DNA of 64,000 bases from Naegleria gruberi (GCA_000004985.1 GG738848.1), one strand, 5' to 3'; positions 705 through 53,940 are shown, numbered from the stretch's first letter. Numbers and translations are program-made. The notes: a model not told the origin generated them from the letters alone.

Positions 705-863
705 TGGCATTAGTGAAGAAATGTCGACCAAATAATAATTCAAAAGATCATCCTAGGAAATTAATGTATTTGTCATAATTACAGGATTGTACAAAGATCC
801 ATGATACATTTTATTCCCATCACGAAAAACATAAATTATAAATTATTATTATTATTTGATGAT

Positions 864-1220
864 TTACTTCTTGATAACAACTCTCAAATATTCTTCAATA
901 TCGGCACCCTTTCCTACCTTGTAGCTGTGATAGTATCTATCGAACAAAGATTTACAAGACTTTTGGAGGACTGGGAGTTGCTTGGAACAAACAACATTAA
1001 TAACTTCTTCTCTATTCTTAAAATCAAAGTTTTGTTCATTGAGTTTAGAAACTTGAGCTTGGATATCCTTGTCCACAGCAGTCAAGGTTTCTGTGAGTTT
1101 ATGAGATGAGAATTTTCCACTTCCATCAACAGAGTCGTGTCCTCCTTTGAAAGCAACAGCATTAGCTGCAACGAGCAACATTGAAATACCTCCAATCTTG
1201 ACAAGTCTTGAGATGGTCAT
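864..1220 (-). CDS. Small hypothetical protein (118 aa) with a hydrophobic N-terminus
   Basis: Clean ORF flanked by AT-rich intergenic DNA. The N-terminal hydrophobic stretch is LVKIGGISMLLVAANAVAF. No family recognised. Confidence 0.35.
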   Translation of the reverse strand: MTISRLVKIGGISMLLVAANAVAFKGGHDSVDGSGKFSSHKLTETLTAVDKDIQAQVSKLNEQNFDFKNREEVINVVCSKQLPVLQKSCKSLFDRYYHSYKVGKGADIEEYLRVVIKK

Positions 1221-1836
1221 TATGTAATATTTTTTTTTAAAATTTCTTAGTATTACAAAGCTAATTTTTGCTTGCGATTTTTATTCTTGAGAGAAATTTT
1301 TGATTTTGATAGAAGAAGCTAACACACAACATTGCAATACATCAAACTCTGAGCACTACTTGAACAGCAGAGGTATGAATGAATATTAAATTAATCAGCA
1401 CAGCACAAAAAGCCGGCTCTTGATATTACTGCTTTTTGTTGTACATCAATAAAAGGCATCAATAATGTGCCCGCTCTTCTATTGTTCCGAAATTAAAGGC
1501 AGCATTCTTACATCAACAACTCGAAATACATGCATCATCAACCGATGTATGCTTCCTTATAGTCTCATCCCCAGTATACTTCTATGAACATACTATTGTA
1601 AATTCAATTCCATATATCCCTACTGGTCCTGTAGGAATTTTTTTAATCTGGGCACTAATGGAGATTTTACATGTAGCTCTTTATTGAACAAGTGCTACAA
1701 AAGTAGAAAATTATGTGCATTGAGAGAAGAATAGTGTTATCCGAACTGTTGTTGCACAACTGTTGACCACCTTTTGATCTACTGTTATTGTAAACAACTG
1801 AGTGGTCTACAATGCAATATTACAGACAAAATAGGT

Positions 1837-3597
1837 TTATTCCTCATCTTCTCCATTCCATTCAATATCAAAAGTCATGGCAGAAATCAAATTGACTCTA
1901 AAACGCCACATTTTAATGATTGGATCCAGGGCAAAGTATGCCTGCATGAAAAATGGCAGTGGATCATTAGGTTTAAATAGGGCATCCTTTTCAATTCCAC
2001 ATTTCAATACATCTGCGAGCCATGATGAGATTAATTGCATTGAGGAACATCCTACAAAGAGAGTGAGAATCATGGCACCTAATAATTGAGATTTGGTACC
2101 AAATGGTGGTGAGAGAATTTCATGTTCTGCCTTGTTATCTTCATTGCTGGTGGAGGTTGCTTGTTGTGGGAAGAAACATTGAATGAATTTGGCACGATTG
2201 ACATGAGGGGTGTTAAATAAGTGAGCTCCACTGGTGGCTCTTGGATTGCATTCAATTGGATGAATGATTAATTCTTGCCCCTTCTTGGTGACAATAAAAT
2301 CAAATGAAATTTGACCTGTGAAATTTCTATGTGAAACCACTGAGGAAATCCAAGATTTGAGGGCTGTATCAATTTGATCATTACTAATCTGTTCAAAATA
2401 GACAGTACTTCCAACAGGTGTTCCATTCGGCGTGTGAATTCCTCCCAAGTAGGTACAGTGAGCTAGCAATTTTCCTCTCTGAGCAACTCCAAAACTGCAA
2501 ACAATTTGACCATCAACGAATTTTTGGGCTACCCACCAAGTCGATGAATCATTTGAAACCTTTGCACTCTTTACAATATCAATGTAGCTTTCATAGCTTG
2601 GTTTGACAATGGTCTGAGAGGCAAATCTCGAATAACATGGCTTTAAGACAACTTGACCATTACATTTCTTCCAAAAATTGATCATTTCAGTGTTATCTTT
2701 CAGATGGCTATGATTAATGAGAATGGTTTCTGGATTCTTGACTCTAATTTTAGTATTTTCATTCAATGTTTCCTCATTATTTCCAATATATTCCACAAAA
2801 TCATACTTGTTGTGAAGTTCACGTAAATTTTCCAATGGTTCGCAACATACGAAACAGTTGGCCTCCTTTTCAACCTGGACTTTAGCTCTAGCAACATGAA
2901 AAACTTCCTCACAAGTAGGAATGACAATATCAATCTTCAATTCTTTACAAATTTCAATCAATTCCTTTTGAAATGTCTTGAATTTCTTGTTAGGATATAC
3001 TGAAAAGTATCTAACTGACTTGGCATATTTCGAAAGATTTGCCACAAACATTGGTCTATACGATGGGGATTCCACCAAATGAACTGAATGTCCCATCTCT
3101 GAAAACATTCTCAAATAATCCAAACAAACAGGAGCTCTCCCTCCCAACAAGAGAATATTCCTTTTCTTTTTCAATTCTGAATCCTCTTCACTCGATTTCC
3201 TGACCAAATTATAAACCTTTGATGTATCATCAATTTCACAATTATTCACACTACCATCGCCACAATATTCATTTAAATATTCTCCAATAATTAATACAAT
3301 CTGATAAAAGGTAGCCAACACTACAATCACACTCACAATCATCATCTTGACCATCACGAGTGCCACCTTTTTCATGAATGCAACAACAGATGATACGATC
3401 ATTCCTTGATGCATTGTTTGCTCTTCCTTTTGACTTGTCATTTCAACCTCCGAAAAACCAAGAAGCCTTTCTCTGCTTTTGAATATCAAAAAAACGAACA
3501 GCAACAATTTGCCTAGTAGTCTTAAAGTCTTTTTTTTTGTGAGTGACAAATGTGGGGTGGATTTGCAAGTGTGTGAAGGTCCTTCGCCAAAAACCAA
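1837..3597 (-). CDS. ATP-grasp-like domain protein with an N-terminal TM segment. The true ATG is probably near 3440, so the first ~50 codons of the ORF are likely 5'UTR.
   Basis: The C-terminal half contains GQISFDFIVTKKGQELIIHPIECNPRATSGAHLF, a typical ATP-grasp E-x-N-P-R nucleotide-binding motif. The upstream half has a Rossmann-like pre-ATP-grasp stretch, LLLGGRAPVCLDYLRMFSEMGHSVHLVE. The N-terminus MTSQKEEQTMHQGMIVSSVVAF is followed by a TM helix. Confidence 0.5.
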   Translation of the reverse strand: MVFGEGPSHTCKSTPHLSLTKKKTLRLLGKLLLFVFLIFKSRERLLGFSEVEMTSQKEEQTMHQGMIVSSVVAFMKKVALVMVKMMIVSVIVVLATFYQIVLIIGEYLNEYCGDGSVNNCEIDDTSKVYNLVRKSSEEDSELKKKRNILLLGGRAPVCLDYLRMFSEMGHSVHLVESPSYRPMFVANLSKYAKSVRYFSVYPNKKFKTFQKELIEICKELKIDIVIPTCEEVFHVARAKVQVEKEANCFVCCEPLENLRELHNKYDFVEYIGNNEETLNENTKIRVKNPETILINHSHLKDNTEMINFWKKCNGQVVLKPCYSRFASQTIVKPSYESYIDIVKSAKVSNDSSTWWVAQKFVDGQIVCSFGVAQRGKLLAHCTYLGGIHTPNGTPVGSTVYFEQISNDQIDTALKSWISSVVSHRNFTGQISFDFIVTKKGQELIIHPIECNPRATSGAHLFNTPHVNRAKFIQCFFPQQATSTSNEDNKAEHEILSPPFGTKSQLLGAMILTLFVGCSSMQLISSWLADVLKCGIEKDALFKPNDPLPFFMQAYFALDPIIKMWRFRVNLISAMTFDIEWNGEDEE

Positions 3598-3874
3598 GCC
3601 AATCAGTTACGGAAGTTTTGTTTTGAACCTCAGACAGTGGACGTGGGGAGGATTTGTGGGAAAATCGAGGAAATTTGAAAGTCCTTAATGTACAGTAAAT
3701 TTTGAGAACTTTCAAAATTCCACATGATGATAACAAATTCCACACTACACTTGCTATTTTCCTCTCAGATCAATGAAAGATTCAATTTATGATTGAATTA
3801 AAATGTGTTGTTGTGTTTATAATGAAGAGAATAGATAAATTGAGAAAGTGATAGGTTGCGTGTGAATTCAATAT

Positions 3875-5075
3875 TTACATGACCAGACAGCAACCTTTCT
3901 TTTCACCATTTCTATTCTGTGATGCATTATTGGGTGATGTATTGGTCTTTGATGTGTTGTTTCCTCCACTTCCACCTTCGAGATCAGAACTGTTCAAAAC
4001 ACCTTGATATAATAGACCTGTCTCACTTGCTTTTTTGAAAACTTCTGTAATACCAACTTGTGTCTTACCACTACACATACAGAATGCGTAGGCACCAAGC
4101 TTTTTGGCAAGGGCCTCTCCTTCCTCTTTGGTCACTGGTTTTTCGCCATGTTCTTCAAGTTTTTTCAAAGTTTCTGGATCTGTAAATATTTTGTAAAATA
4201 GTTTTCCAATTCCAATAAAATTTCACACAATTATTGAAAGGCAGTTCAACAGTTTGAACATTGTCAAATTCACATCCATCAGATTATTATTTAAATAATA
4301 ATAATAATAATAATAACAATAGAAAATATTCAAAGTCATCATTCGAAAGAAAAACCTACCATTTGCACTATCCAATTTAGTTCCACACAAAACAAATGGA
4401 ACATCCTTTGAAAATGTTCTAATTTCTTTAATCCAATGCGCATCAACATTTTCAAAACTCGATCTACTAATCAATGAAAAACAAATTAGAAAAACATGAG
4501 TTCCAGGAAAAGCTAATGGACGCATTTGTTCATAGCTGTTTTTAAATATTAATAATAATTAGTATTATTATTATCAAGAATATAGAGAGCGTTTAGATAT
4601 ATCAGAAAAAAGGTGATGATGATGGTTTGTTGTTCCTTTCTATTAGAATTATTAGAATTGATGAATGACTTACTCACTGTAAAGAATTGTGTTATTGGAA
4701 TGTGATAAAAAGTACTTACTCTTGACCAGCTGTATCCCACAGCCCAAGGGATACGTGAATTTGTTTATTGTACACCATTGTACATGTCTAATTTAATGTC
4801 AAATGTCTATTTTCAAGTTTTGAAAGTGAATAACAACACTTACATAGTTATCGAAAACTGTTGGCACGTAGTCTTCTGGGAATTTATCTAAAGCGTATGA
4901 CATGAGTAAAGATGTTTTACCTAATCATCATCATTTAGTTTCCAATGAAAAAATTAAATTAATAAAAACATACCGACTGCACCGTCTCCTACGGTCTTGT
5001 TAAAAGGTTGATGATGTTATTATTGGGTGTTTTACTTACCATCAGTTTGACGCTTTCCATGCGAGGTTGAGACAT
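3875..5075 (-). CDS. Rho-family small GTPase (Rac-like), 6 exons
   Basis: Hand-spliced exons are about 5040..5075, 4974..4995, 4844..4920, 4720..4787, 4360..4535 and 3875..4179. All introns are GTAAGT/GTATGT...AG. The assembled protein carries the motifs below. G1: [34 protein letters not shown]3: [20 protein letters not shown], then [17 protein letters not shown]4: CGTKLD. G5: [13 protein letters not shown]. It ends in the CAAX box CLVM after a polybasic/Ser-rich tail. The spliced length is 684 nt, giving 227 aa. Confidence 0.85.
4289..4316. repeat. (AAT)n microsatellite inside the last intron of the Rho GTPase gene
   Basis: aataataataataataataataa read directly from the sequence. Confidence 0.8.
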
Positions 5076-12126: not shown

Positions 12127-13410
12127 TTAAAAGTGAATTACAACATTTGTTGAATATTTCAATTTCTTGAGAGTCATCATTCCTTCCTCACTAATATTGT
12201 TTTGAGCAATCCGCAATGTTTTCAATTTTGTCAATCTAGTGAGTGATTTTGCTCCATCATCTCCAATGTCATTATTTCTAATATCGAGTTCAGTTAAATT
12301 TTCCATTGTACTAATTGATTTGGCACCTTTGTCACTTACAATATTGGAATCTATACATAGATTTTTCAACTGTGATATTTCACTAATTGATTTGGCACTC
12401 TTGTCACCAATATTATTTTCTTGAATAAAGAGACTAGTTAATTGTTTCATTGAGCTGAAAACCTCAGCTGATTGATCGCTAATAGAATTATATCCAACAT
12501 CCAAGTTGGTCAATTTCTTCAATTTTACAATAGATTCATCAAGTGATGATATCCTATTGAGAGACACTCTCAGAAACGTTAAATTTTCCAGCTTTGAAAT
12601 AGGCCCAATTGACCTAAGGCCATTGTTAGCACAATCAAGATATGTAAGATTGATCAATTCACTGATAGATTCCAACCCTTCATTATGTGGAATGCAAACA
12701 CCACAATAGCTAATATCTAGAATGGTTAAATTTTTCAATTTTCCAATTAATTTGGCACCATCTGAGTATAAACTATTTGAAGCAATGTGAAGTTCAGTTA
12801 ATTGATCAAGTTGACTAATCGATTGAAACACATCTTCATAGTCTATACAACAACCAACAGCGCAAAGTTTCTTTAGATTGGTTAGTTGTTTCAATTTTTT
12901 AAATCCTCCATTCCACCTATGACACTGTTTTCTATTAATATCCAGCTCAGTCAATTGTGTCATTTCAAAAACCCCATTGAGTGCATTGCTGTCTACATCT
13001 GCGTACAAATAAAGAGATTTTAATTGTTTCAATTGACTAATTGCCTTGATTCCATCTTCTCCAATTTTCAATCCGCTAATATCAAGTTTGGTCAACTGAG
13101 ACATCTTTGCAAATATTCCACAATACCTTGAACAATCCTTTGATCCGAATGTTTCCACATGAACACCCACAATACAATCTAAAAATTGACTTCTTTTCAA
13201 CAAGGATTCCATCTTGTTTGTTAATTTCTTCTTAAATTCAAGCAAAAATTTAGAATAATTTAGAATAATATTTAACCACTGTTTGGAAATAAAGGAACAA
13301 GTCTGCATGAGAAATTTAGAATCATCAATGTAGGAAATAATTTCGCAACAAATGTCATCAGAGAATATTTCATAACTCTGATCGGAACGTTGTGTTTTGA
13401 GTCGTTTCAT
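12127..13410 (-). CDS. F-box-like / leucine-rich-repeat protein
   Basis: The N-terminus IFSDDICCEIISYIDDSKFLMQTCSFISKQWLNIIL has F-box character. It is followed by more than 10 LxxLxLxxNxI-type LRRs, for example LTELDIRNNDIGDDGAKSL. Confidence 0.55.
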   Translation of the reverse strand: MKRLKTQRSDQSYEIFSDDICCEIISYIDDSKFLMQTCSFISKQWLNIILNYSKFLLEFKKKLTNKMESLLKRSQFLDCIVGVHVETFGSKDCSRYCGIFAKMSQLTKLDISGLKIGEDGIKAISQLKQLKSLYLYADVDSNALNGVFEMTQLTELDINRKQCHRWNGGFKKLKQLTNLKKLCAVGCCIDYEDVFQSISQLDQLTELHIASNSLYSDGAKLIGKLKNLTILDISYCGVCIPHNEGLESISELINLTYLDCANNGLRSIGPISKLENLTFLRVSLNRISSLDESIVKLKKLTNLDVGYNSISDQSAEVFSSMKQLTSLFIQENNIGDKSAKSISEISQLKNLCIDSNIVSDKGAKSISTMENLTELDIRNNDIGDDGAKSLTRLTKLKTLRIAQNNISEEGMMTLKKLKYSTNVVIHF

Positions 13411-43445: not shown

Positions 43446-46142
43446 TTAGGTCTTTTTCTTCTTCTTTACACCACCAGCATCAAATTGAATGAATTGTAAT
43501 TCATACCTAGGAATTCTGAAATGCATAAATGGCATTCCAGCATTAGCAGCTTTGTTATTTGTTGAATTGTTATTTTGGTTTCGTTTTCTCTTCTTTTCCA
43601 CTGGTTGAGTAGTAGTGGTAAGAGGAGGTGTTACAGATTTGGTTTCTGATTTGACATTCGTATCAGTAATGTTATCAACTTGTCCTGAGGCAACTATACT
43701 ACTGCTACTACCAAAATTGGACATTGGTTGTGCATTCATACTCACAAAAGATGAGGTCAAATTGGAATTAACATCATTATTTTGAACATAGTTCCAGAGT
43801 GGATCAATATTTGGTCCTACAAGGGAGTTGGCAATGTCATTATTAACTGAGAGTAAGGAGTGTGGTTGTTCATCAGGATTGACAAGATCGAAATTGAAAT
43901 CTCCATCATCAAAAAGAAGAGCAAATGAATCATCAACAGAAATTGACATTCTATGTGACGCCTTTCTAGCCATAGTGACTGGAGCAACGGATTTTCTTCT
44001 GTATGAGGAAGGTTGTAAGAGAATTGAGGTTTTGTGAATATTCTCAATTTCATCCAATTTTTGTTCTTGGACGAAAATAGAGAGCAAGTCACAAACAAAG
44101 CTCAAAATTTGTTCATCTCGCTCACTAAAGTTACCTGTATGCTTGTTCAAAACTTCTAAAACTCCTACAAATTGGTTTCCACTTCCAACTATTGGAGAAC
44201 AAATAACACTCTTTGTTGAAAATCCTGTTGTTTTGTCCACTTCTGGTGCAAATTTAGAATTACTCCTCACATCAGGTATATTCACACTCTTTCCACTTTG
44301 GAAGCATGATCCTGCAATCCCTCTGTCAGAAGGAATTCTAATTTCATCTTCGCCAATTGCAACTTGTGAAATGAGCTCGTCTGTTTGTCTATCGTACATG
44401 AATAATGTTGTTCTTTCTGCATGTAACATTCTGGTAATACATGAGATTATGTGTTGGAAGAAAACTCCAACCGAGTGCAAGTCCTGTCTTAGAACAGATA
44501 AACGTCTATAGACACAACCCTTCTCTGTTGTTGACTCTCCAATTTTAACATGGTTTTCTTTCTTTTGGGTATTGTTGTTATCTCCTCCATTTTCAGCACT
44601 ATTTTCAACAACTGGAGTTGTTGATGAGGATGCAACCTTTTCTTGAGGCTCAATTCTAAAGAATGAAGGATACATATCCATAGCATACCTGGTTGGGAAG
44701 GCAGCTGGTGGAGTATTCTCTTCACCCCACAATTCAAAGGTTTGGGTCAATTCGTGTCTGTCCTTTTCTTCTGTATTGGAGGTTGTTTCTGGGTCACTGC
44801 TGGATACTTCTTTTTGAGGTGGGAATTTGTAGGTGTTAAGAGTTTCTTCGTCCTTTTTAGGTGGTGGGAATGTAAAGGCAGTAAGGGATTGATAAATATC
44901 ACCCTTTGGAGTGCCATTAGCAGAACCATTTGTACTATTTGGTGTTGAAGGTTGAGAAGTGGAAGTAGCGGATGGTGGCAGCATTGAGCCCATCATTTGT
45001 TGTTGACTTTGAATTGCTCTTGAAATAATATCAGGATTGCTGGAAATGTTGATATTATTGTAGAGATCTAGCATTTTTAGAACTTGTTCATATTTAGACT
45101 TGGCAAAAAGTAAGCAATGTTCTGCAACAACTGCTGTTCCGTATTGTTGAGCTTTGGCCCATTGTTGAAAAACGTTATCCACAGAAAGAGTTCCAATAAT
45201 AAATTCTTGGCATTGACTGAGAAGTGCACTCAGCTGATAGAATTTAGCTGCTTGATAAAGATCCCAAATCTTGTCAGATCTTAGAATGGTACAGTCAGTA
45301 TAAACAAATTCCAAAATATTATAGAAAATATCAGCAGATGCATCTTGAATCTCAATTTCCAAAATGGATGTATTGGAACATTTGACGAGAATTAGTTGAT
45401 TGAAATAATTACTCCTAGCACATAAAATTAATTTGTGAGCATAAAACTTCTTTCCTTGAATAATAAACGTCACATCACTTAAAATTGGATTATTAAAGAA
45501 TTGTTTGATGCTTGATCCCATGGTGTTACTCTTACTAATAAATGTTTGAGCTGTGGACTCTGTTATGGAACTTTGCCCCAATCCAGCCTGTCCTGCATTG
45601 TTAGTGGAACTAGAGGATGTAGAAACTGGTGATTGTGTAGGTTGTTGTATCTGCAAGATGCTTGAAGAGTTGGGAGAAATTTGTTGCAAGTTATTGTTAT
45701 TTGAAAGTTGATTTACGACCATATTCGAAAATTGATTATTCATGGGTGGTGAGGATACTTGGATTACTTGTTGATTTGAATTTTGTTGATTTAACAATTG
45801 TTGTAGCATGTTTTGTTGTTGATTTGTATTGTTTTGTTGTTGGTTTTGTTGAATAAGATTCATCAGGTTGTTGAAAATACCCATTGCTTGCTGATTATTA
45901 TTGTTAGAGGGTGATGGTTGGTTGTTTTGCATTTGTTGTTGTTGTTGGAAGAGATTGATTATACTATTCATGTTGTTATTACTATTACTATTGTTCTTCA
46001 TCATGTTGAGAAGCGAATTGATCTCATTCATTGAATTATTACCATTATTATTATTGTTGTTATTGTTGCCATTGTTATTATTCATCATCATAACTAGAGC
46101 ATTCAATAACTGTCCCGAATTTGCCTGATTATTCGGTAACAT
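43446..46142 (-). CDS. BTB/POZ + GAF domain protein with a long poly-N/Q N-terminus (898 aa)
   Basis: The N-terminal ~200 aa are N/Q-rich ([25 protein letters not shown]). The BTB domain is LSDVTFIIQGKKFYAHKLILCARSNYFNQLIL...DIFYNILEFVYTDC. The GAF domain is FMYDRQTDELISQVAIGEDEIRIPSDRGIAGSCFQSGKSVNIPDV...VICSPIVGSGNQFVGVLEVLNK. Confidence 0.7.
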   Translation of the reverse strand: MLPNNQANSGQLLNALVMMMNNNNGNNNNNNNNGNNSMNEINSLLNMMKNNSNSNNNMNSIINLFQQQQQMQNNQPSPSNNNNQQAMGIFNNLMNLIQQNQQQNNTNQQQNMLQQLLNQQNSNQQVIQVSSPPMNNQFSNMVVNQLSNNNNLQQISPNSSSILQIQQPTQSPVSTSSSSTNNAGQAGLGQSSITESTAQTFISKSNTMGSSIKQFFNNPILSDVTFIIQGKKFYAHKLILCARSNYFNQLILVKCSNTSILEIEIQDASADIFYNILEFVYTDCTILRSDKIWDLYQAAKFYQLSALLSQCQEFIIGTLSVDNVFQQWAKAQQYGTAVVAEHCLLFAKSKYEQVLKMLDLYNNINISSNPDIISRAIQSQQQMMGSMLPPSATSTSQPSTPNSTNGSANGTPKGDIYQSLTAFTFPPPKKDEETLNTYKFPPQKEVSSSDPETTSNTEEKDRHELTQTFELWGEENTPPAAFPTRYAMDMYPSFFRIEPQEKVASSSTTPVVENSAENGGDNNNTQKKENHVKIGESTTEKGCVYRRLSVLRQDLHSVGVFFQHIISCITRMLHAERTTLFMYDRQTDELISQVAIGEDEIRIPSDRGIAGSCFQSGKSVNIPDVRSNSKFAPEVDKTTGFSTKSVICSPIVGSGNQFVGVLEVLNKHTGNFSERDEQILSFVCDLLSIFVQEQKLDEIENIHKTSILLQPSSYRRKSVAPVTMARKASHRMSISVDDSFALLFDDGDFNFDLVNPDEQPHSLLSVNNDIANSLVGPNIDPLWNYVQNNDVNSNLTSSFVSMNAQPMSNFGSSSSIVASGQVDNITDTNVKSETKSVTPPLTTTTQPVEKKRKRNQNNNSTNNKAANAGMPFMHFRIPRYELQFIQFDAGGVKKKKKT

Positions 46143-48348: not shown

Positions 48349-49185
48349 CTAAAAACCTTTAAAATAAAGTATTCCTATATTTTTACATACCTTAACCCTA
48401 CATTTTTTCAATTTTAAAAATTCCAGATTTGTCAATTTGCTTAAACATGTAGCTCCTGTAATGTGTAGGAATCCATTTTCTATTTCTAATCGTTTTAAAT
48501 TAATTAATTCAGAAATTGACATTAGTGCATGATCTCCAATACAATGATTTTCAATTATCAATGAAGTCAATTGTGTTATTTTTTTAAATTCTAAAAAAAT
48601 TGATTTTTTAGGATAAAATATTTCTCTGCCTGATGAATTGATAAAGCAAAGCTCCCTCAAATGGATTAATTTGCTTATTTGATCCAAATGATGGATCTCA
48701 ATATCGTGTACAATTAATTTTCTTAATTTGGGTAAAATTGCCAAATCATGTAAATCTTCCATAATGTAACTCAATTCCAATTCTTCCAAATTTATCAATT
48801 TTTGTAAAGGACTCAACGAAGAGGTAATTTTAGTAAATTTTAAATATTTCAAATTGACAAATTGTGAAATAATTTCCAAAATAAAACTACCATCACAAAT
48901 GAGATATTGTAAATTGATGAAAATTTCTACATGTTCTTGTTTTAGAAAATTGTAAATATTTCGGATGTGTAAATTGTGAGCATTCCGAAACTTTTTAAAA
49001 GCACTAGTAAAATAATTCCAAATATTTTCATCACGAATTAAACTTGTGCGAATGAGGGAAAGTTTAGTTGTGAATAAACATCGCAACCACTTTTCACAAA
49101 CCAAAGAACACACTTGAATTAGAAACTTTGGTTCATGAAATACAAAAATTTGATGAGAAATAATTTCATCCGGTAATTGTTCCAT
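48349..49185 (-). CDS. F-box-like / LRR protein
   Basis: The N-terminus LPDEIISHQIFVFHEPKFLIQVCSLVCEKWL is followed by LRR units (LEELELSYI, LRELCFINSSG, LKRLEIENGFL). Confidence 0.5.
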   Translation of the reverse strand: MEQLPDEIISHQIFVFHEPKFLIQVCSLVCEKWLRCLFTTKLSLIRTSLIRDENIWNYFTSAFKKFRNAHNLHIRNIYNFLKQEHVEIFINLQYLICDGSFILEIISQFVNLKYLKFTKITSSLSPLQKLINLEELELSYIMEDLHDLAILPKLRKLIVHDIEIHHLDQISKLIHLRELCFINSSGREIFYPKKSIFLEFKKITQLTSLIIENHCIGDHALMSISELINLKRLEIENGFLHITGATCLSKLTNLEFLKLKKCRVKVCKNIGILYFKGF

Positions 49186-49228
49186 TTTTTTTAATAAAAT
49201 TTAAAACAATTTTTTTTTCAATTTTTTA

Positions 49229-49273
49229 CATTTATAGTAAAAACAATGAGACAACAAGCTCGAAAACATTGAG
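49229..49273. repeat. Retroelement repeat B (terminal 3' copy)
   Basis: Identical 45 bp. AT-rich host-like DNA follows to the left of 49229. Confidence 0.8.
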
Positions 49274-49438
49274 TTTATTCTTCTACGCGTACACAAATTG
49301 CATACACTTTTATCCTCTTTTCATTCATTCAGCCATCCAGCCAGCTCAGTATTCATGGATATACTACTATATCATACTAAACTAACCTTAGACTGAATAA
49401 ACTCACATATTTGCAACTACTAGCAAAACAAACCAAAT

Positions 49439-49494
49439 AGATATTCCTATGAATATCTATTCGAACTTCAGTAGATATTCCATTGAATATCTAC
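49439..49494. repeat. Two adjacent perfect hairpin palindromes in the retroelement spacer
   Basis: The first is agatattc-ctat-gaatatct, with 8-bp arms. The second is gtagatattc-catt-gaatatctac, with 10-bp arms. The two share the same arm core and are separated by 12 nt. Confidence 0.7.
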
Positions 49495-49652
49495 TTAAAA
49501 AACCCTCATTGGGTATTGATCGTGACAAGGGCTATCCCGGTGTCAACATGTTAAATTATCGCCACCTTCCTGGCCGATCAAATGACACCGTCGTCTATTA
49601 AGCCAATATAATACTTACAGATATTTTCGATCTAGGGTGGGGTGGTGGGTCA

Positions 49653-49854
49653 TCTTAAGTATGTCAGTGATGGTTTCTTGAATTGTTGATTGACTCATAA
49701 TGTGTTGCAATTTTTTCAACTTGAGTTTTACTTTCCTTCAGTAAAACTCTCTATTTAACCTAAATTTTCATTGTAAAATTTAGGTTGACTACGTTACCTG
49801 GTTGTCTATTGTTTTTACAATATAAACTTACGTAAGGTGTGGACCTTACTACCA
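49653..49854. repeat. Retroelement repeat A (internal/3' copy)
   Basis: Identical to 53688..53889 by direct comparison. Confidence 0.85.
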
Positions 49855-49897
49855 TTTATAGTAAAAACAATGAGACAACAAGCTCGAAAACATTGAG
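49853..49897. repeat. Retroelement repeat B (internal copy), abutting repeat A
   Basis: catttatagtaaaaacaatgagacaacaagctcgaaaacattgag is identical to 49229..49273. It is followed by accttacta, which repeats the end of A. Confidence 0.8.
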
Positions 49898-49914
49898 ACC
49901 TTACTAGCATAAGT

Positions 49915-52900
49915 TTAGAAGCCCATCAAGTGTGAACCGTTTCTATCACCTCTAAAGTTAGCTCGAAAATATCTGTCTATAGCATCTGAATTCCAACCAC
50001 CCATGGCCTTGATGGTAGCATCAGGGATACCCATAATGGCAGCCTCCGTGGCTCCACCAATTCTCAACGAATGAGAAGAGTACTTTCCTGGATCAGCTTC
50101 GATCCATGTTGCAACCTGAGTTAAGATGTAAGAAATCTCAACTGTATTTAAAGAAAAACCACCGGTAAACAAAAACTTTCCTTTGTCTCTTGAATCAAGT
50201 AATTTTTGAAGCCATTTCATCGGACACAATTCAGAACCTGTCGCTTCGATACATGATTTTCTTCCTTTCTTATCATTCTTCACTTTTCTCACTGTTATAC
50301 TAAACCCCACCACCGGGAACTTCACAATCTTTAGATCCTCTATTAATAAACCACCCAATTCTGAACCCCTAAACATTGACCTTATACCAAAAATCATTAG
50401 GCACGTGTATAGAACATATGATTTTTCTTTAACAAACTGTCTACCAACAATTACCCATTTACAAATAAATTCTATTCTCCATGGATCTCTTTCTCTCTTT
50501 GTCGCCACTGTAGCCAGATTGCACATACCCTTTATCACCATCTGTACTCTAATGTTTACTGTAATATCCTCCCAACCAATCCTTTTACAAAAATGCTTAA
50601 TAGCATACATTGCACTTCGACAGTTATTACCAGATGGTGTTTTGATGAACATAAAGGTGAGAAATCTGACTACCATTTCACTAGTTGCTGGTGGAACCTC
50701 TTTTTGCTTAATAAGAAAGTTGATAAATCTATTCCAATAACTTTCATAGTTGTCTGTTGTGGATATTTCAATTGAACATGACATTAATGTATCTGCAATC
50801 TTACTCAAATCGTGACTCTGCAGTCTACTAATGTTGCTCTTATGGTCCAAAATCCTTTGCATGGTTCTAGGTTCCCTCCTTGGGAGGCTCTGAAATGATT
50901 TCCATCTAGATTCATAAAACGAATTTGATAACTTTCTATTATCTTCCACCACCACCTCTTTTTCCATACTGGATGAACCAATACCATAACTGCTTTGGAC
51001 TCTAGACAATGTTGTAATACTCTCCCTATTAGATTGAAAGGTACGCAGCACCAATTTACCACTGGCTCTGTCCAAAGGTGAGAGAATGAATCTGCTTTCT
51101 CTCTTCTGCTGGTCTTCTTTCTCACTGTATATGGTTTTGTCTTGAAGTTGTAATGAGAGGCGAATCTGTCCCATCCTATTGATACATCCAGCTGCTTCTC
51201 TACTAATTGAAAAGCTTCTTTGGTAATCTCCCAATCTGTTGGGTCTTTCTCTTGAATATTTCTGCTCAGATTGTCCGCTACTTGATTCTCCTCCGAAGGT
51301 AACCATTCTAACGAAAGCAAACGGATGTCGTGTTCGAAAATAATGCGCCATATTAGTTGAATCAATTGATTCATAATGGGAGACTTTGCTCTTCCCTTCA
51401 TTATACAATATAGAGCCACCTTTGAATCCGTGTAAACAATTAAATTCTTTCCTTTCAAAAGATGTGACCATTCTTTTAGGGCAAGATAGATCGCTCTCAC
51501 TTCTAATACATTGATATGTTCTTGGCATTGTTCTCCCTTCCAAAAACCTTGTAGTTTCAAATTTCTTTCTTTGTGGAAAACTCCCCATCCCAATCTCGAT
51601 GCATCTGTCCAAAAGTATTCCACTAAGCTTGGATATTGGAACACCTTTCCATTCCAATGGTCCAAGTTGTATAAAATCCATTGGAGATTGAAAATTACAT
51701 CTCGGTCTCTGATGCGAAATTCGGAATCCCAGCCTCCAATATTCACCTAGTCCACCACTAAAGAATAAATCGGATTCAACATCACCCTTGCAGGTTGGAA
51801 ACAGTCTACATAAGCAATTATAATACCAGTCATCCGAAACAGTTCTCTGGATGTTACTTTCTGATCTTGGTGATACTTGGCAAGGGCTATGGAAATACGA
51901 GTTCGAATTTTCTCTAATGTAGCTTCTGTCATAATTAATTTCCTGCTGACCAGATCTATCTTGATCCCAAGTAGTTGAAAGACTTTTAATGGAGTTAACT
52001 GACTCTTCTTCTTTTCGATAACTACACCTAATTCTGCACATACCATTGTAACGAATGTATTGTTCCTTAATGCAGATAAATAGGAACCAAAATGTAATAA
52101 ACCAACATCGTCTAAGTAATTGGATGGTGTTAAAGAATCTGATCTCAAAAAATTGATAAATACATTCATCATTTGTGTAAAAAAGTATGGAGATCCATTC
52201 CATCCAAATGGAAGGACTGTGAATTGCAAAACCTCTTCCTCTACTTGAATGGCAAAGTATGGTCTGTCCTTCCTTTTTACCTTCATCTGGTGATATCCGG
52301 ATTTCATATCGAACATAGAACCCCAAATTTGATCTGTCTTGTTCATTGGTACGTGTTCTAAAAACTTCTTCAACGTGTTGTACTTGAATTTGGGGATAGA
52401 ACAAAACCGATTGAGCGGTCTTAAATCGATAATCAGTCGGTATGATTCTTTCTTTGGGACCAGCCGATACTTGGCTATCACTTTTGGATTGTGACAAGGT
52501 TCCAAAGCTCCAATCTCTTTCAAAATACTCACTTCTCTTTTTAACCATTCTCTCTCTTCCAAAGACCATTCTTCTAAATTTACCTTTCCATAGTATGGAA
52601 CAAATTCTTCGTTTGTTTGAACTGATACACCCTCTTTCAACATATCCACTATTTCCATTGAAGCTCCTTTCTTCCTCCAGGTATCCCATTTGTTCGAAAT
52701 GGAATGAATAGCCTCTCTTCTTTCTTCTACCTCTCGGAAAAAACAAATCATCTACATACTCTGAACCCTCTCTTTTATTTCTCTTAGGGCAATCTTTGAT
52801 CAGATGGTTTGGGTCATTACAAATAAAGCATTTCTTCACTTTCTTCATACCATTAGCACTACCAAACATATTCACCTTTTCCTCTGCCTTATCTTTCTTA

Positions 52901-53754
52901 TCATAAATCTTGGCATTTGCATAGGATTTAACAAAACTTGTCTTACCCTTCTCCTTATGGTCGAACTTGAGTAGTTTTTCTGCCATCTTAAGCTTATCCA
53001 TGTTCTCACGCCATAATGGATTGCTTTCTATAAACGCCAATTTAGATGCTAATTCTGGATTGACGGCTTGAACTTGTAATTGGAAAGCTCTTGTCTCTAA
53101 GTTCGCAACCATTTTCTTCGTATCATCTATTTCTGGGAAAAGATTAGCTATCTTCATTGTAAAAGCAGAATCCTTTCTCAAATTCTCATATTCTGTAAGA
53201 AGACTAGAATTAGTTGTTGGCAATGGTGTGTAGATTGTATCTGTGTATTTTCTAACTTCAGATTCAGCTGCCAATTGTTGTAAAACACGTTCTGTTTCAG
53301 CTTTTTCCAGCTTCATCTGTGCAATCTTAGCATCGATTATTTGTTCATAAGCCTTAAATCTCTTCACATCTTCTTCTGATACCTCTTCTCTCTTTCTCTT
53401 GTTAGAGCCATCTTCAACTTCTACAACTGACTCACCATCGTCCTCTTCGTCATCATCATCGTCATCATCATCTCTTGCTTCCTTGAATGCATGTTTAATC
53501 TCATCCTTTAACTTCTCTACATCTTTACTCTTGCCACTTGTGCAAACCGTAAACTTGTCTGCACCAATAAAGTCAACAATTGCCTTTGCCAATACCTTCT
53601 TTTGGCCAGAAACTTCAATTTCCAAGGTACCTATAATCTTTTGTATCAAGGCCTTTGTTAACTTTCCAACAGCACTTTTATCATGCTTCTTAAGTATGTC
53701 AGTGATGGTTTCTTGAATTGTTGATTGACTCATAATGTGTTGCAATTTTTTCAA
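49915..53754 (-). CDS. Retroelement long ORF (1279 aa): gag (N-terminal ~335 aa) ... overprinted linker ... tyrosine recombinase (C-terminal ~300-400 aa)
   Basis: One continuous frame. The N-terminus MSQSTIQETITDILKKH has a poly-Asp tract and a CCHC knuckle. The C-terminus has the tyrosine-recombinase R..HxxR..Y motifs. The central ~600 codons overlap the RT/RNase H frame and show no domain of their own. Confidence 0.75.
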   Translation of the reverse strand: MKKLQHIMSQSTIQETITDILKKHDKSAVGKLTKALIQKIIGTLEIEVSGQKKVLAKAIVDFIGADKFTVCTSGKSKDVEKLKDEIKHAFKEARDDDDDDDDEEDDGESVVEVEDGSNKRKREEVSEEDVKRFKAYEQIIDAKIAQMKLEKAETERVLQQLAAESEVRKYTDTIYTPLPTTNSSLLTEYENLRKDSAFTMKIANLFPEIDDTKKMVANLETRAFQLQVQAVNPELASKLAFIESNPLWRENMDKLKMAEKLLKFDHKEKGKTSFVKSYANAKIYDKKDKAEEKVNMFGSANGMKKVKKCFICNDPNHLIKDCPKRNKREGSEYVDDLFFPRGRRKKRGYSFHFEQMGYLEEERSFNGNSGYVERGCISSNKRRICSILWKGKFRRMVFGRERMVKKRSEYFERDWSFGTLSQSKSDSQVSAGPKERIIPTDYRFKTAQSVLFYPQIQVQHVEEVFRTRTNEQDRSNLGFYVRYEIRISPDEGKKEGQTILCHSSRGRGFAIHSPSIWMEWISILFYTNDECIYQFFEIRFFNTIQLLRRCWFITFWFLFICIKEQYIRYNGMCRIRCSYRKEEESVNSIKSLSTTWDQDRSGQQEINYDRSYIRENSNSYFHSPCQVSPRSESNIQRTVSDDWYYNCLCRLFPTCKGDVESDLFFSGGLGEYWRLGFRISHQRPRCNFQSPMDFIQLGPLEWKGVPISKLSGILLDRCIEIGMGSFPQRKKFETTRFLEGRTMPRTYQCIRSESDLSCPKRMVTSFERKEFNCLHGFKGGSILYNEGKSKVSHYESIDSTNMAHYFRTRHPFAFVRMVTFGGESSSGQSEQKYSRERPNRLGDYQRSFSISREAAGCINRMGQIRLSLQLQDKTIYSEKEDQQKRESRFILSPLDRASGKLVLRTFQSNRESITTLSRVQSSYGIGSSSMEKEVVVEDNRKLSNSFYESRWKSFQSLPRREPRTMQRILDHKSNISRLQSHDLSKIADTLMSCSIEISTTDNYESYWNRFINFLIKQKEVPPATSEMVVRFLTFMFIKTPSGNNCRSAMYAIKHFCKRIGWEDITVNIRVQMVIKGMCNLATVATKRERDPWRIEFICKWVIVGRQFVKEKSYVLYTCLMIFGIRSMFRGSELGGLLIEDLKIVKFPVVGFSITVRKVKNDKKGRKSCIEATGSELCPMKWLQKLLDSRDKGKFLFTGGFSLNTVEISYILTQVATWIEADPGKYSSHSLRIGGATEAAIMGIPDATIKAMGGWNSDAIDRYFRANFRGDRNGSHLMGF
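50805..51746 (-). CDS. Retroelement RNase H (+ downstream domain) ORF, same frame as RT, separated from it by one TAG
   Basis: FWTDASRLGWGVF...LEVRAIYLALKEW...LIVYTDSKVALYCI are RNase H motifs. There is no ATG; it is listed with a GTG start. Confidence 0.75.
   Translation of the reverse strand: MNIGGWDSEFRIRDRDVIFNLQWILYNLDHWNGKVFQYPSLVEYFWTDASRLGWGVFHKERNLKLQGFWKGEQCQEHINVLEVRAIYLALKEWSHLLKGKNLIVYTDSKVALYCIMKGRAKSPIMNQLIQLIWRIIFEHDIRLLSLEWLPSEENQVADNLSRNIQEKDPTDWEITKEAFQLVEKQLDVSIGWDRFASHYNFKTKPYTVRKKTSRREKADSFSHLWTEPVVNWCCVPFNLIGRVLQHCLESKAVMVLVHPVWKKRWWWKIIESYQIRFMNLDGNHFRASQGGNLEPCKGFWTIRATLVDCRVTI
51747..52751 (-). CDS. Retroelement reverse transcriptase ORF, in the +1 frame relative to gag
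   Basis: LIIDLRPLNRF, KSGYHQMKV, LPFGWNGSPYFF and YLDDVGLL are RT motifs 1-5. The ORF ends with TAG at 51747..51749. Confidence 0.8.
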   Translation of the reverse strand: MICFFREVEERREAIHSISNKWDTWRKKGASMEIVDMLKEGVSVQTNEEFVPYYGKVNLEEWSLEEREWLKREVSILKEIGALEPCHNPKVIAKYRLVPKKESYRLIIDLRPLNRFCSIPKFKYNTLKKFLEHVPMNKTDQIWGSMFDMKSGYHQMKVKRKDRPYFAIQVEEEVLQFTVLPFGWNGSPYFFTQMMNVFINFLRSDSLTPSNYLDDVGLLHFGSYLSALRNNTFVTMVCAELGVVIEKKKSQLTPLKVFQLLGIKIDLVSRKLIMTEATLEKIRTRISIALAKYHQDQKVTSRELFRMTGIIIAYVDCFQPARVMLNPIYSLVVD

Positions 53755-53889
53755 CTTGAGTTTTACTTTCCTTCAGTAAAACTCTCTATTTAACCTAAAT
53801 TTTCATTGTAAAATTTAGGTTGACTACGTTACCTGGTTGTCTATTGTTTTTACAATATAAACTTACGTAAGGTGTGGACCTTACTACCA
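53688..53889. repeat. Retroelement terminal repeat A (5' copy). It contains the gag ATG.
   Basis: The 202 bp are identical to 49653..49854. The copy begins tcttaagtatgtcagtgatgg and ends ggaccttactacca. Confidence 0.85.
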
Positions 53890-53940
53890 ATTATTTAGAA
53901 TTTACAAATATAGATAATAATATACAAATAATCGGCAAGA

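What the first reader, a model, noticed from the sequence alone, without database searches (positions are those of the whole stretch)
49229..53889. Intact tyrosine-recombinase retrotransposon with split direct repeats and identical 202-bp terminal repeats
In element orientation the repeats read A - coding - B A - spacer - B. The internal B-A junction duplicates what a circular B(3' end)-A(5' end) junction would look like. This is the template logic proposed for DIRS/PAT-type tyrosine-recombinase retroelements, not an LTR element. The 9-mer accttacta at the end of A is repeated immediately after internal B, which supports that reading. The 202-bp A copies are 100% identical and the gag ATG sits inside A. 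The gag, RT, RNase H and recombinase motifs are all intact, suggesting a very recent insertion. It lies between an F-box/LRR gene and a prenylcysteine oxidase gene in a gene-dense region, not a centromere-like repeat cluster.
Basis: partly seen in the sequence, partly recalled or inferred. Interest (0 to 1): 0.7.

Follow-up and report, generated by a model that had tools for sequence, protein, structure and literature searches.

The report
Naegleria tyrosine-recombinase retrotransposon, split repeats
This is a real, nearly complete mobile element of a known kind (a PAT/DIRS-type tyrosine-recombinase retrotransposon) in the amoeba Naegleria gruberi; it shows the family's odd repeat and overlapping-gene layout clearly, but it is not a new type and this copy has one disabling stop codon.

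Summary
On the minus strand, 53889..49229 reads A1 (202 bp) – coding – B1 (45 bp) A2 (202 bp) – 379-nt spacer – B2 (45 bp). Both repeat pairs are 100% identical, and there is no target-site duplication. The window is Naegleria gruberi.

The element encodes a gag with a CCHC knuckle, RT, RNase H, a DIRS-type methyltransferase-like domain and a tyrosine recombinase (YR). It has no inverted terminal repeats. By structure it is PAT-like within the DIRS order.

Three 99.8–99.9% identical copies of a related family in N. lovaniensis, at independent loci, have the same A–coding–BA–spacer–B layout. So the arrangement belongs to the element lineage.

There are two corrections and one addition:
- "All intact" is wrong. 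The pol frame carries one in-frame TAG (51747–51749) where five relatives have Met or Leu.
- Only A1 is terminal; A2 is internal.
- gag, a 650-codon stop-free stretch and the YR form one 1279-codon ORF, with pol nested entirely in its +1 frame. About 39 stops are expected by chance and none is observed. The N. lovaniensis copies share this; a 28%-identical relative has a single stop after gag.

DIRS-like sequences were already reported in N. gruberi in 2011. Verdict: new member of a known kind, modest interest.

The parts
49229..53889 (-). Whole element, 4661 bp. The boundaries are ambiguous by the 2-nt 'TG' shared by the element ends and the target.
   Evidence: No target-site duplication. 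The reconstructed empty site is ...TTCTAAATAAT-TG-TAAAAAATTG...
53688..53889 (-). A1, the 5' terminal repeat (202 bp). It holds three stem-loops and the gag ATG with its first 15 codons.
   Evidence: It is 100% identical to A2. The RNA fold has z = -4.3, with stems at 53867-53884, 53792-53821 and 53758-53784. The start GGTAGTAA is shared with the N. lovaniensis A repeat.
49915..53733 (-). Single long ORF of 1272 codons from the ATG (1279 from the first TTG at 53754). It comprises gag, a stop-free 'X' stretch overlapping pol, and the tyrosine recombinase.
   Evidence: Searches show frame 1 open from element nt 118 to 3972, with its stop codon at 3973-3975. In a synonymous-codon permutation test of the pol region, 39 +/- 4 stops are expected in this frame (minimum 26 in 5000 permutations) and 0 are observed. 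The same layout is found in N. lovaniensis and in L086.
52789..52830 (-). gag CCHC zinc knuckle (CFICNDPNHLIKDC).
   Evidence: Pfam zf-CCHC, E = 2e-4; coordinates.
52732..52743 (-). TTTTTTCCGAGA, at the start of the gag/pol overlap. It is a candidate +1 frameshift site (UUU UUU CCG in the gag frame).
   Evidence: TTTTTTCC(G/A)AGA sits at the equivalent position in N. lovaniensis. CCG is the rarest Pro codon in the host ORFs of the window, at 1.2 per 1000. This is an inference, not a demonstration.
50805..52751 (-). pol frame (RT, RNase H, MT-like), in the +1 frame relative to gag-X-YR. It is interrupted by one TAG.
   Evidence: Pfam RVT_1, E = 5e-18, plus RNase H families. YLDD lies at 52107-52118. 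The RNase H acidic residues fall in invariant alignment columns (D383, E417, D442, D493).
51747..51749 (-). In-frame TAG between the RT and RNase H domains (premature stop).
   Evidence: Relatives have Met (L001, N. lovaniensis) or Leu (L002) at this position. TAG ends 2 of 15 host ORFs in the window. The sequence downstream has no unusual structure, z = -1.1.
50946..51245 (-). DIRS-type methyltransferase-like domain (DRFAS...VPF...HPVW).
   Evidence: BLASTP E = 7e-10 to P0004 residues 455-553, the stretch of P0004 that matches Pfam PCIF1_WW and Dam. Alignment.
49918..50751 (-). Tyrosine recombinase: an N-terminal domain plus a catalytic domain. Arg lies at 50356-50376 (MFRGSEL), HxxR at 50047-50073, and Tyr at 49963-49983.
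   Evidence: Pfam Phage_integrase, E = 2e-5, just below the gathering score. A profile of 5 relatives hits the XerC-like and XerA structures 4a8e and 5hxy at E = 7e-4 and 2e-3; in the 4a8e alignment the R, HxxR and Y positions line up.
49897..49906 (-). 10-mer TAGTAAGGTC directly 5' of B1, identical to nt 4-13 of A.
   Evidence: N. lovaniensis has only a 5-nt echo (CGGTA) and L001 has none.
49853..49897 (-). B1, the internal copy of the 45-bp repeat. With A2 it forms the B/A junction ...TTACTATAAATG|GTAGTAAGG.
   Evidence: A B-like sequence follows the YR stop in L001. The B end TTTAC.A.AAAT..G is shared with N. lovaniensis.
49653..49854 (-). A2, the internal copy of A.
   Evidence: 202/202 identical.
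49274..49652 (-). Unique 379-nt 3' spacer between A2 and B2. It starts with a C-rich tract and carries two near-identical 22-nt palindromes (49438-49459, 49472-49493). It ends with ACGCGTAGAAGAATAAA.
   Evidence: Spacer plus B2 folds with z = -5.3. N. lovaniensis copies have a ~500-nt spacer in the same place, with a C-rich start and GAAGAATAAA just before B2.
49274..49279 (-). AATAAA immediately 5' of B2 and absent before B1. It is a candidate poly(A) signal that would end the transcript inside B2.
   Evidence: It is conserved in N. lovaniensis. Its function is inferred.
49229..49273 (-). B2, the 3' terminal repeat (45 bp).
   Evidence: 45/45 identical to B1.

Best explanation
This is a single insertion of a PAT-like (split-direct-repeat, MT-domain-bearing) tyrosine-recombinase retrotransposon of the DIRS order, in Naegleria gruberi.

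Shown here:
- The repeat anatomy is A1-coding-B1A2-spacer-B2.
- The domain set is gag(CCHC)/RT/RNase H/MT-like/YR.
- There are no ITRs, no target-site duplication, and no protease or integrase.
- One ORF, gag-X-YR, has pol nested in its +1 frame.
- The copy carries a premature TAG in pol.
- The repeat and ORF layouts recur in three N. lovaniensis copies.

Inferred from this anatomy and from the published DIRS/PAT/Ngaro models:
1. Transcription starts inside A1. A TATA-like AT-rich box lies just upstream.
2. The transcript ends inside B2, after the AATAAA that precedes B2 but not B1. The RNA therefore lacks the outermost bases of both ends.
3. gag-X-YR is translated from the main frame. pol is reached by a +1 shift at the conserved UUUUUUC run, or by internal initiation.
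4. During reverse transcription the complete internal B1-A2 junction serves as template or splint. It restores the missing ends and gives a circular (or end-joined) DNA with one B/A junction.
5. The YR recombines that junction with a genomic site that shares a few bases with it. The shared bases are TG here and 3-8 nt in N. lovaniensis. This gives an insertion with A at the 5' end, B at the 3' end and no duplication.

Because of the TAG, this copy probably cannot make RNase H/MT-containing pol by itself. It would need pol supplied in trans.
For: Repeats and boundaries.
Domains.
Organism: (100% identity to an N. gruberi protein). One search shows that the gene model XP_002682075.1 is built on this element.
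Overlapping frame under selection.
Same repeat and ORF layout in three 99.8-99.9% identical N. lovaniensis copies at different loci.
Microhomology without duplication at four independent insertions.
Conserved GAAGAATAAA before B2 only, conserved GGTAGTAA at the A start, and conserved B end.
B-like sequence after the YR stop in an environmental relative.
Literature: definitions of the SDR A1-B1A2-B2 layout, the MT domain and overlapping YR/pol ORFs, the short junction homology and the absence of TSD are in PMC3266345, PMC4157794, PMC6681497 and PMC9210276. The internal junction region (ICR) is essential in DIRS-1, and its proteins act in trans (PMC7192593).
Against: - No RNA, cDNA or circle data exist for this element. 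Transcript ends, the frameshift, the template use of B1A2 and the circular intermediate are all inferred.
- Only one copy is visible in N. gruberi, so activity in this species is unproven.
- pol is interrupted by a TAG.
- Phylogenetic placement among DIRS1-like versus PAT-like references could not be tested. An earlier survey filed N. gruberi sequences as DIRS1-like by similarity (PMC3266345).
- For DIRS-1 the extrachromosomal cDNA was found to be mostly linear and single-stranded (PMC7192593), so the circle step is not settled even for the type element.
Confidence: 0.85

Rival explanations
1. This is a head-to-tail pair. A full element 'A-coding-B' is followed by a 626-bp internally deleted or miniature element 'A-spacer-B'. 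On this reading it is not one element with split direct repeats.
For: The layout A...B A...B is formally that of two tandem units. Integration of a circle next to a resident copy could produce tandems.
Against: The spacer has no similarity to any part of the coding unit, so unit 2 is not a deletion derivative of unit 1. Three N. lovaniensis copies at unrelated loci carry the same full arrangement with the same spacing, so the whole A1..B2 block moves as one unit. The poly(A)-like signal precedes only B2. This layout is the published definition of split direct repeats (PMC4157794, PMC9210276).
Confidence: 0.04
2. This is an ordinary LTR retrotransposon whose LTRs are the two 202-bp A copies, and the downstream B2 copy is incidental.
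For: There are two identical direct repeats about 4 kb apart that begin with TG, and a gag-pol-like coding region with a Ty3-like RT/RNase H.
Against: No DDE integrase or protease is present, and a tyrosine recombinase is encoded instead. No target-site duplication flanks A1/A2. The gag start codon lies inside the 'LTR'. The exact 45-bp B2 copy and its conservation of position in N. lovaniensis are left unexplained.
Confidence: 0.02
3. The copy is fully functional. On this reading the TAG between RT and RNase H is read through, either programmed or leaky, so pol is made as RT alone plus a minor RT-RNase H-MT product.
For: The repeats are perfectly identical and every other frame is open, which fits a very young or still active copy. 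The TAG sits in a poorly conserved linker. Read-through is a known retroelement strategy (general knowledge).
Against: Five relatives, including three intact N. lovaniensis copies, have a sense codon there. The 100 nt downstream show no special structure, z = -1.1. TAG terminates host ORFs in this window. A single T-to-A change from TTG gives TAG and is silent in the overlapping frame, so the change is an easy mutation.
Confidence: 0.1
4. The locus is a host gene, annotated as NAEGRDRAFT_45916, that derives from an old retroelement and is now domesticated. On this reading it is not a mobile element.
For: It is annotated as a predicted protein in the reference genome. It is apparently a single copy in the window, lies in a gene-dense region, and has the same orientation as its neighbours.
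Against: The gene model is a chimera that splices gag+X to the last 75 residues of the YR. Perfect terminal and internal repeats, a complete set of retroelement domains, and near-identical multi-copy relatives in the sister species all point to recent mobility, not domestication.
Confidence: 0.02

Closest known systems
PAT-like elements (Pat1 of Panagrellus/Caenorhabditis, and SpPat1 of the sea urchin, the 'echinoderm form')
   Same: Split direct repeats A1...B1A2...B2, RT-RNase H-MT pol, a tyrosine recombinase, and a zinc knuckle in gag. The internal repeats lie downstream of the YR, as I read the echinoderm form from the text of PMC4157794.
   Different: The host is a heterolobosean protist. 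pol is completely nested in the +1 frame of a single gag-X-YR ORF, and extensive YR/pol overlap is described as a DIRS1-like trait (PMC3266345). A 379-nt structured spacer separates A2 from B2. Sequence similarity to any named PAT reference was not tested.
DIRS-1 of Dictyostelium discoideum and DIRS1-like elements
   Same: The domain set, including the inactive-looking PCIF1/Dam-like MT domain. The YR ORF overlaps pol, with the catalytic part in the non-overlapping 3' end. Integration occurs at a short sequence shared by junction and target, without duplication. An internal junction region stands in for the joined termini.
   Different: DIRS1-like elements have inverted terminal repeats and an internal complementary region. 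This element has direct split repeats and no inverted repeats. Here gag and the YR ORF are also fused in frame.
Ngaro elements (zebrafish, fungi, Cafeteria)
   Same: The split-direct-repeat layout A1-[ORFs]-B1A2B2 with the internal repeats after the YR, and 100% identical repeat pairs in young copies (PMC8547959, PMC9210276).
   Different: Ngaro elements lack the MT domain and usually lack ORF overlap. This element has both.
VIPER/TATE of kinetoplastids (the other Discoba YR retroelements)
   Same: A YR retroelement with split direct repeats, in a related eukaryotic supergroup (PMC6681497).
   Different: VIPER lacks the MT domain (PMC3266345, PMC4157794). No specific sequence similarity to VIPER was seen or tested here.
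Related family in Naegleria lovaniensis (loci L087-L089; gene models C9374_002847, C9374_004722, C9374_010711)
   Same: Identical architecture: A (~180 bp) containing the gag ATG, a gag-X-YR ORF with nested +1 pol, B (44 bp), a spacer, GGTAGTAA at the A start, GAAGAATAAA before B2, and TTTTTTCC at the start of the overlap.
   Different: Only 44% pol identity. pol is uninterrupted. The spacer is ~500 nt and carries 11 GGATGC motifs instead of two palindromes. There are at least three nearly identical copies.

Membership tests
DIRS order (tyrosine-recombinase retrotransposons) | Reverse transcriptase and RNase H of the Ty3-like type | tested here: met
   Pfam RVT_1, E = 5e-18, plus RNase H families. 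YLDD is present, and the RNase H acidic residues (D383, E417, D442, D493) are invariant in the alignment.
DIRS order (tyrosine-recombinase retrotransposons) | Tyrosine recombinase with the R...HxxR...Y catalytic signature, in place of a DDE integrase; no protease | tested here: met
   Phage_integrase, E = 2e-5. A profile hits the XerC-like and XerA structures; in the 4a8e alignment RGSEL, HSLRIGGAT and DRY line up with the catalytic positions. Pfam finds no rve integrase or protease.
DIRS order (tyrosine-recombinase retrotransposons) | Insertion without target-site duplication, at a short sequence shared with the element's end junction | tested here: met
   In N. gruberi the shared sequence is TG and there is no duplication. 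In the three N. lovaniensis insertions 8, 4 and 3-4 nt are shared, again with no duplication.
PAT-like superfamily | Split direct repeats A1 ... B1A2 ... B2, with A1=A2 and B1=B2 | tested here: met
   202/202 and 45/45 identical. The same layout is found in three N. lovaniensis copies.
PAT-like superfamily | Methyltransferase-like domain after RNase H | tested here: met
   The segment 50946-51245 aligns with the PCIF1_WW/Dam-matching stretch of P0004, E = 7e-10. Pfam does not hit the window segment directly.
PAT-like superfamily | Zinc finger in gag (Pat1-like subgroup) | tested here: met
   CCHC knuckle at 52789-52830.
PAT-like superfamily | Clusters with PAT reference elements in RT/YR phylogeny | not testable with these tools
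   No named reference sequences (PAT, SpPat1, kangaroo, Toc3, DIRS-1) were available. All non-Naegleria-like hits were about 25-28% identical and unnamed. PMC3266345 filed N. gruberi sequences as DIRS1-like by TBLASTX score.
DIRS1-like superfamily | Inverted terminal repeats plus an internal complementary region | tested here: not met
   There are no inverted repeats between the termini or between the termini and the interior. The only inverted repeats are local hairpins. The same holds in N. lovaniensis, with 0 inverted pairs.
DIRS1-like superfamily | YR ORF overlapping pol, with the catalytic domain in the non-overlapping 3' end | tested here: met
   Frame 1 is stop-free across all 648 pol codons, against 39 stops expected. 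The YR N-terminal domain begins just after the pol stop.
Ngaro superfamily | Split direct repeats but no MT domain, and ORFs usually not overlapping | tested here: not met
   An MT-like domain is present and pol is fully overlapped.
VIPER-like superfamily | No MT domain; kinetoplastid hosts | tested here: not met
   An MT-like domain is present and the host is a heterolobosean.
LTR retrotransposons | Identical LTRs at both termini, a 4-6-bp target duplication, and a DDE integrase and protease | tested here: not met
   The 3' terminus is B2, not A. There is no duplication and no integrase or protease.

The most novel reading that the evidence does not exclude
The Naegleria elements may form a distinct, deep lineage of YR retrotransposons that combines PAT-type split direct repeats with a more extreme version of the DIRS1-type overlap. 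gag, a sequence-unconstrained but strictly stop-free 650-codon linker, and the recombinase form one ORF, and pol is expressed from inside it by a conserved +1 shift at UUUUUUC. If so, the recombinase would be made only as a gag fusion, and the pol:gag-YR ratio would be set by frameshift efficiency. That expression strategy has not been described for this order.
Probability: 0.2. Interest if true: 0.5.

Novelty: new member of a known kind. Interest (0 to 1): 0.3.

Why it matters
YR retrotransposons are rare and poorly understood. Only DIRS-1 has been tested experimentally, and how the split-repeat types replicate is still a paper model.

A near-complete copy in N. gruberi, together with three almost identical and fully open copies in N. 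lovaniensis, gives clean material from culturable amoebae in a supergroup (Discoba) where only the kinetoplastid VIPER/TATE elements had been characterised. The material includes:
- exact termini;
- four integration sites showing 2-8 bp of junction/target homology;
- conserved non-coding blocks;
- a strongly selected overlapping reading frame.

The analysis also corrects the annotation. The N. gruberi 'predicted protein' NAEGRDRAFT_45916 and three N. lovaniensis 'hypothetical proteins' are chimeric gene models drawn across the element's two frames.

None of this changes what is known about the class. It adds a well-defined member and some testable details.

Tried and rejected
- Exact-sequence look-ups of the F-box protein and of the 1272-aa ORF found nothing. 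The element turned out to be annotated as a different, spliced model.
- Rfam at a permissive threshold and tRNA scans of the element found no known RNA, ribozyme or tRNA-like primer site.
- The metagenome scan with a pol alignment returned only distant RTs (22-36% identity). None of the 32 longer loci has an open second frame or a YR hit, so they were not informative.
- A single-sequence PDB search with the YR gave only noise. A 5-sequence profile was needed.
- Pfam finds nothing in the 642-residue X stretch. X is only about 31-33% identical between relatives whose pol is 44-60% identical. I therefore regard X as kept open but not conserved in sequence.
- No RNA structure that could stimulate read-through lies downstream of the TAG.
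- The 6-bp inverted repeat around the B/A junction (TTACTA-TAAATGG-TAGTAA), a possible recombinase core site, is not found in L001 or N. lovaniensis. I dropped it as evidence.
- The 10-mer before B1 is not clearly conserved. N. lovaniensis has only a 5-nt echo, and no function is assigned.
- Other N. gruberi copies could not be searched, because no tool holds that genome as DNA.
- The bacterial-type promoter and terminator scan is not meaningful for a eukaryote.
Full report
**1. What is in the sequence**

A occupies 53688-53889 and 49653-49854 (202/202 identical). B occupies 49853-49897 and 49229-49273 (45/45 identical). Nothing else in the 64-kb window resembles A, B or the coding part.

All coding is on the minus strand. 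In element orientation the order is A1 – coding – B1 A2 – 379-nt spacer – B2. B and A overlap by the dinucleotide TG at the internal junction (...TATAAATG|GTAGTAAGG...). The same TG is present once at each outer boundary:
- 5' boundary: ...CTAAATAAT-TG-GTAGTAAGG
- 3' boundary: ...TATAAA-TG-TAAAAAATTG

So there is no target-site duplication, only 2 nt shared by element junction and target.

TAGTAAGGT occurs exactly three times in the window: at the start of A1, at the start of A2, and directly 5' of B1. The match runs to 10 nt. The gag ATG (53731-53733) and its first 15 codons lie inside A.

**2. Host and neighbours**

A 634-residue ORF of the window is 100% identical to an N. gruberi glycerol-3-phosphate dehydrogenase on a 712,659-bp contig. 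The same contig carries the gene model XP_002682075.1 / NAEGRDRAFT_45916, which is drawn on this element.

The flanking genes are an F-box/LRR gene and a prenylcysteine lyase gene, both on the same strand as the element. Before the insertion, only about 96 nt separated the lyase stop codon from the F-box ATG. B2 now ends 43 nt upstream of that ATG.

**3. Coding capacity**

- Frame 1 of the element is open from nt 118 to 3972, with its stop codon at 3973-3975 (1279 codons). It begins with a gag that has a CCHC knuckle and ends with a tyrosine recombinase.
- The recombinase call rests on three results. Pfam Phage_integrase gives E = 2e-5. Four relatives are 31-58% identical. A profile of these sequences hits the XerC-like and XerA structures; in the 4a8e alignment the Arg (RGSEL), HxxR (HSLRIGGAT) and Tyr (DRY) positions are aligned.
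- Frame 2 (+1 relative to frame 1) holds pol, from nt 1139 to 3085. It contains RT (RVT_1, E = 5e-18, with YLDD), RNase H with its four acidic residues in invariant columns, and a C-terminal segment. That segment aligns (E = 7e-10) with the stretch of a DIRS-like protein that matches Pfam PCIF1_WW and Dam. This is the DIRS-type methyltransferase-like domain.
- No protease or DDE integrase is present.

**4. The copy is not fully intact**

The pol frame contains one in-frame TAG (51747-51749), in the linker between RT and RNase H. At this position relatives have Met (L001 and three N. lovaniensis copies) or Leu (L002). TAG ends two of fifteen host ORFs in the window, so it is a genuine stop in this genome. 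The downstream RNA is unremarkable, z = -1.1. A TTG-to-TAG change would be silent in the overlapping frame.

I read this as a disabling point mutation. Read-through cannot be excluded (my estimate is about 0.1).

**5. The overlapping frame**

Frame 1 has no stop across all 648 pol codons. I permuted synonymous codons of pol, keeping the protein and the codon usage. This gives 39 ± 4 stops in that frame (minimum 26 in 5000 trials), against 0 observed. The third frame has 75 stops.

The same holds in other relatives:
- two environmental relatives (L001 and L002; 0 observed against 31 and 24 expected);
- a 28%-identical relative, L086 (1 observed against 41 expected; the frame is continuous with the YR);
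- the N. lovaniensis copies.

The overlapped stretch (X) has no Pfam match. It is only about 31-33% identical between relatives whose pol is 44-60% identical. So its openness is conserved, but its sequence is not.

Extensive YR/pol overlap, with the catalytic domain in the non-overlapping 3' end, is a published trait of DIRS1-like elements (PMC3266345, PMC6681497). Here it is complete, and gag is fused in frame. L086 has a single TAA between gag and X, in the same frame.

At the start of the overlap, both Naegleria species have TTTTTTCC(G/A)AGA. In the gag frame this reads UUU UUU CCR. A tRNA-Phe could re-pair +1 on UUC. CCG is the rarest proline codon in the host ORFs (1.2 per 1000), although N. 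lovaniensis has CCA. L001 has no ATG at the start of its pol frame. I propose a +1 shift there. This is an inference only.

**6. Test in other copies**

The representative-protein search and the cluster look-up led to three N. lovaniensis gene models and their loci L087-L089. Each locus contains a 4.78-kb element, and the three are 99.8-99.9% identical to one another. Each has:
- A1 (~180 bp) – coding – B1 (44 bp) A2 – a ~500-nt spacer – B2;
- one 1332-codon gag-X-YR ORF in frame 1 (uninterrupted in L087 and L088; L089 has one stop at element nt 3715-3717);
- an uninterrupted 676-codon pol in frame 2, 44% identical to the window's pol.

The three insertions lie in different gene-dense contexts. 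Their boundaries show 8, 4 and 3-4 nt shared between the B/A junction (...ACAACAAATTCG|GTAGTAAAAGGG) and the target, and no duplication.

Non-coding features shared by the two species:
- GGTAGTAA at the A start;
- the gag ATG inside A;
- the B end TTTAC.A.AAAT..G;
- a C-rich tract at the start of the spacer;
- ACGCG..GAAGAATAAA immediately before B2 but not before B1.

In the environmental relative L001, a B-like sequence (CTCATTGTTATCGAGCTTG...GGATAAATGG) follows the YR stop, and the contig breaks 27 nt later.

Neither is met. The layout is a property of the lineage.

**7. Classification**

Published structural criteria (PMC4157794, PMC3266345, PMC6681497) give the following:
- an MT domain places an element in the DIRS group, not Ngaro or VIPER;
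- split direct repeats without ITR/ICR mean PAT-like, not DIRS1-like;
- a gag zinc finger means Pat1-like;
- internal repeats downstream of the YR correspond to the 'echinoderm form', as far as the text allows.

A phylogenetic test against named references was not possible. Piednoël et al. (PMC3266345) found seven DIRS-like sequences in six families in N. gruberi. They called them DIRS1-like by TBLASTX and considered them too frameshifted for phylogeny. RepeatMasker lists 89 DIRS fragments in N. lovaniensis (PMC6125883). So the presence of such elements in Naegleria is known. Their split-repeat termini and nested-ORF layout are not described in the papers I could search.

**8. Mechanism**

Shown here:
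- the anatomy and the domain set;
- junction/target microhomology without duplication;
- selection on the overlapping frame;
- identical repeat pairs.

Inferred:
- The transcript starts inside A1. An AT-rich TATA-like box lies just upstream. At the internal junction the box is the TATAAAT at the end of B.
- The transcript ends inside B2, after the conserved AATAAA.
- The complete internal B1A2 junction supplies the terminal bases the transcript lacks. This allows a joined B/A end to form, which the YR recombines with a target that partly matches it.

This is the model proposed for PAT/Ngaro elements (cited in PMC6681497). It parallels the experimentally supported need for the internal junction region in DIRS-1 (PMC7192593).

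The non-coding parts are strongly structured: A has z = -4.3 and spacer+B2 has z = -5.3. The spacers carry short repeated motifs. N. gruberi has two 22-nt palindromes, and N. lovaniensis has eleven GGATGC motifs within 230 nt. These might be priming, packaging or protein-binding sites. That is speculation.

**9. Age**

Zero differences in 247 bp of paired repeat only bounds the divergence. It is below roughly 0.6% per copy at 95% confidence, from exp(-2·247·d) = 0.05. This is compatible with 'recent' but does not measure it. The one visible defect is the TAG.

**10. Verdict**

The element is a new, well-defined member of a known kind, and interest is modest (0.3).

Noticed in passing
window 49915-53733 (-): The reference annotation's 'predicted protein' NAEGRDRAFT_45916 (XP_002682075.1, 559 aa) is a chimeric gene model on this element. 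It joins gag plus the first part of the overlapping frame to the last 75 residues of the recombinase through an invented intron.
   Followed up: yes
L087 4001-7903, L088 4001-8648, L089 4001-7612: Three N. lovaniensis 'hypothetical proteins' (C9374_002847, C9374_010711, C9374_004722) are likewise chimeras. Each switches between the pol frame and the gag-X-YR frame of a 4.78-kb retrotransposon that is present in at least three 99.8-99.9% identical copies.
   Followed up: yes
window 49186-49228 and 53890-53940: The element sits in what was an intergenic gap of only about 96 nt. The target (CTAAATAATTG) and the end of B (CTATAAATG) are both TATA-like. After insertion, a TATAAAT from B2 lies about 50 nt upstream of the F-box gene's ATG, and the original AT-rich box lies upstream of A1. 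The insertion may have swapped core-promoter-like sequences between host gene and element.
   Followed up: no
window 49438-49459 and 49472-49493; L087 8205-8440: The spacer between A2 and B2 carries species-specific arrays of short motifs. N. gruberi has two near-identical 22-nt palindromes (TAGATATTC-N4-GAATATCTA). N. lovaniensis has eleven GGATGC motifs within 230 nt, which is 11 of the 12 in the 11.9-kb locus. Their function is unknown.
   Followed up: partly
window 49625-49652; L087 8129-8160: In both species the spacer begins with a C-rich tract: ACCCACCACCCCACCC in N. gruberi and CCCACCCTCCTCCCAATCCACC in N. lovaniensis. This tract would be G-rich in the minus-strand cDNA.
   Followed up: no
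window 49653-49699 plus the spacer start: A2 repeats the gag ATG and its first 15 codons. These then run into the spacer and give a 27-codon ORF (MSQSTIQETITDILKMTHHPTLDRKYL*). N. lovaniensis has an analogous short ORF.
   Followed up: no
L001, L002/L003, L084, L085: Environmental relatives (58-60% pol identity) each carry one or two 1-nt frame changes relative to the Naegleria layout. Because both frames are open, gene callers report long chimeric proteins. L002/L003 lack the 5' part (gag and the pol N-terminus) and abut a protein-kinase gene. Most relatives' contigs end within about 100 nt of the YR stop, as expected if assembly breaks in the repeats.
   Followed up: partly
window 12127-13410 (-), 48349-49185 (-), 43446-46142 (-): The window holds several leucine-rich-repeat, F-box and BTB genes. 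The genes are intron-poor, with very short intergenic gaps. No tRNA genes lie in the 64 kb.
   Followed up: no
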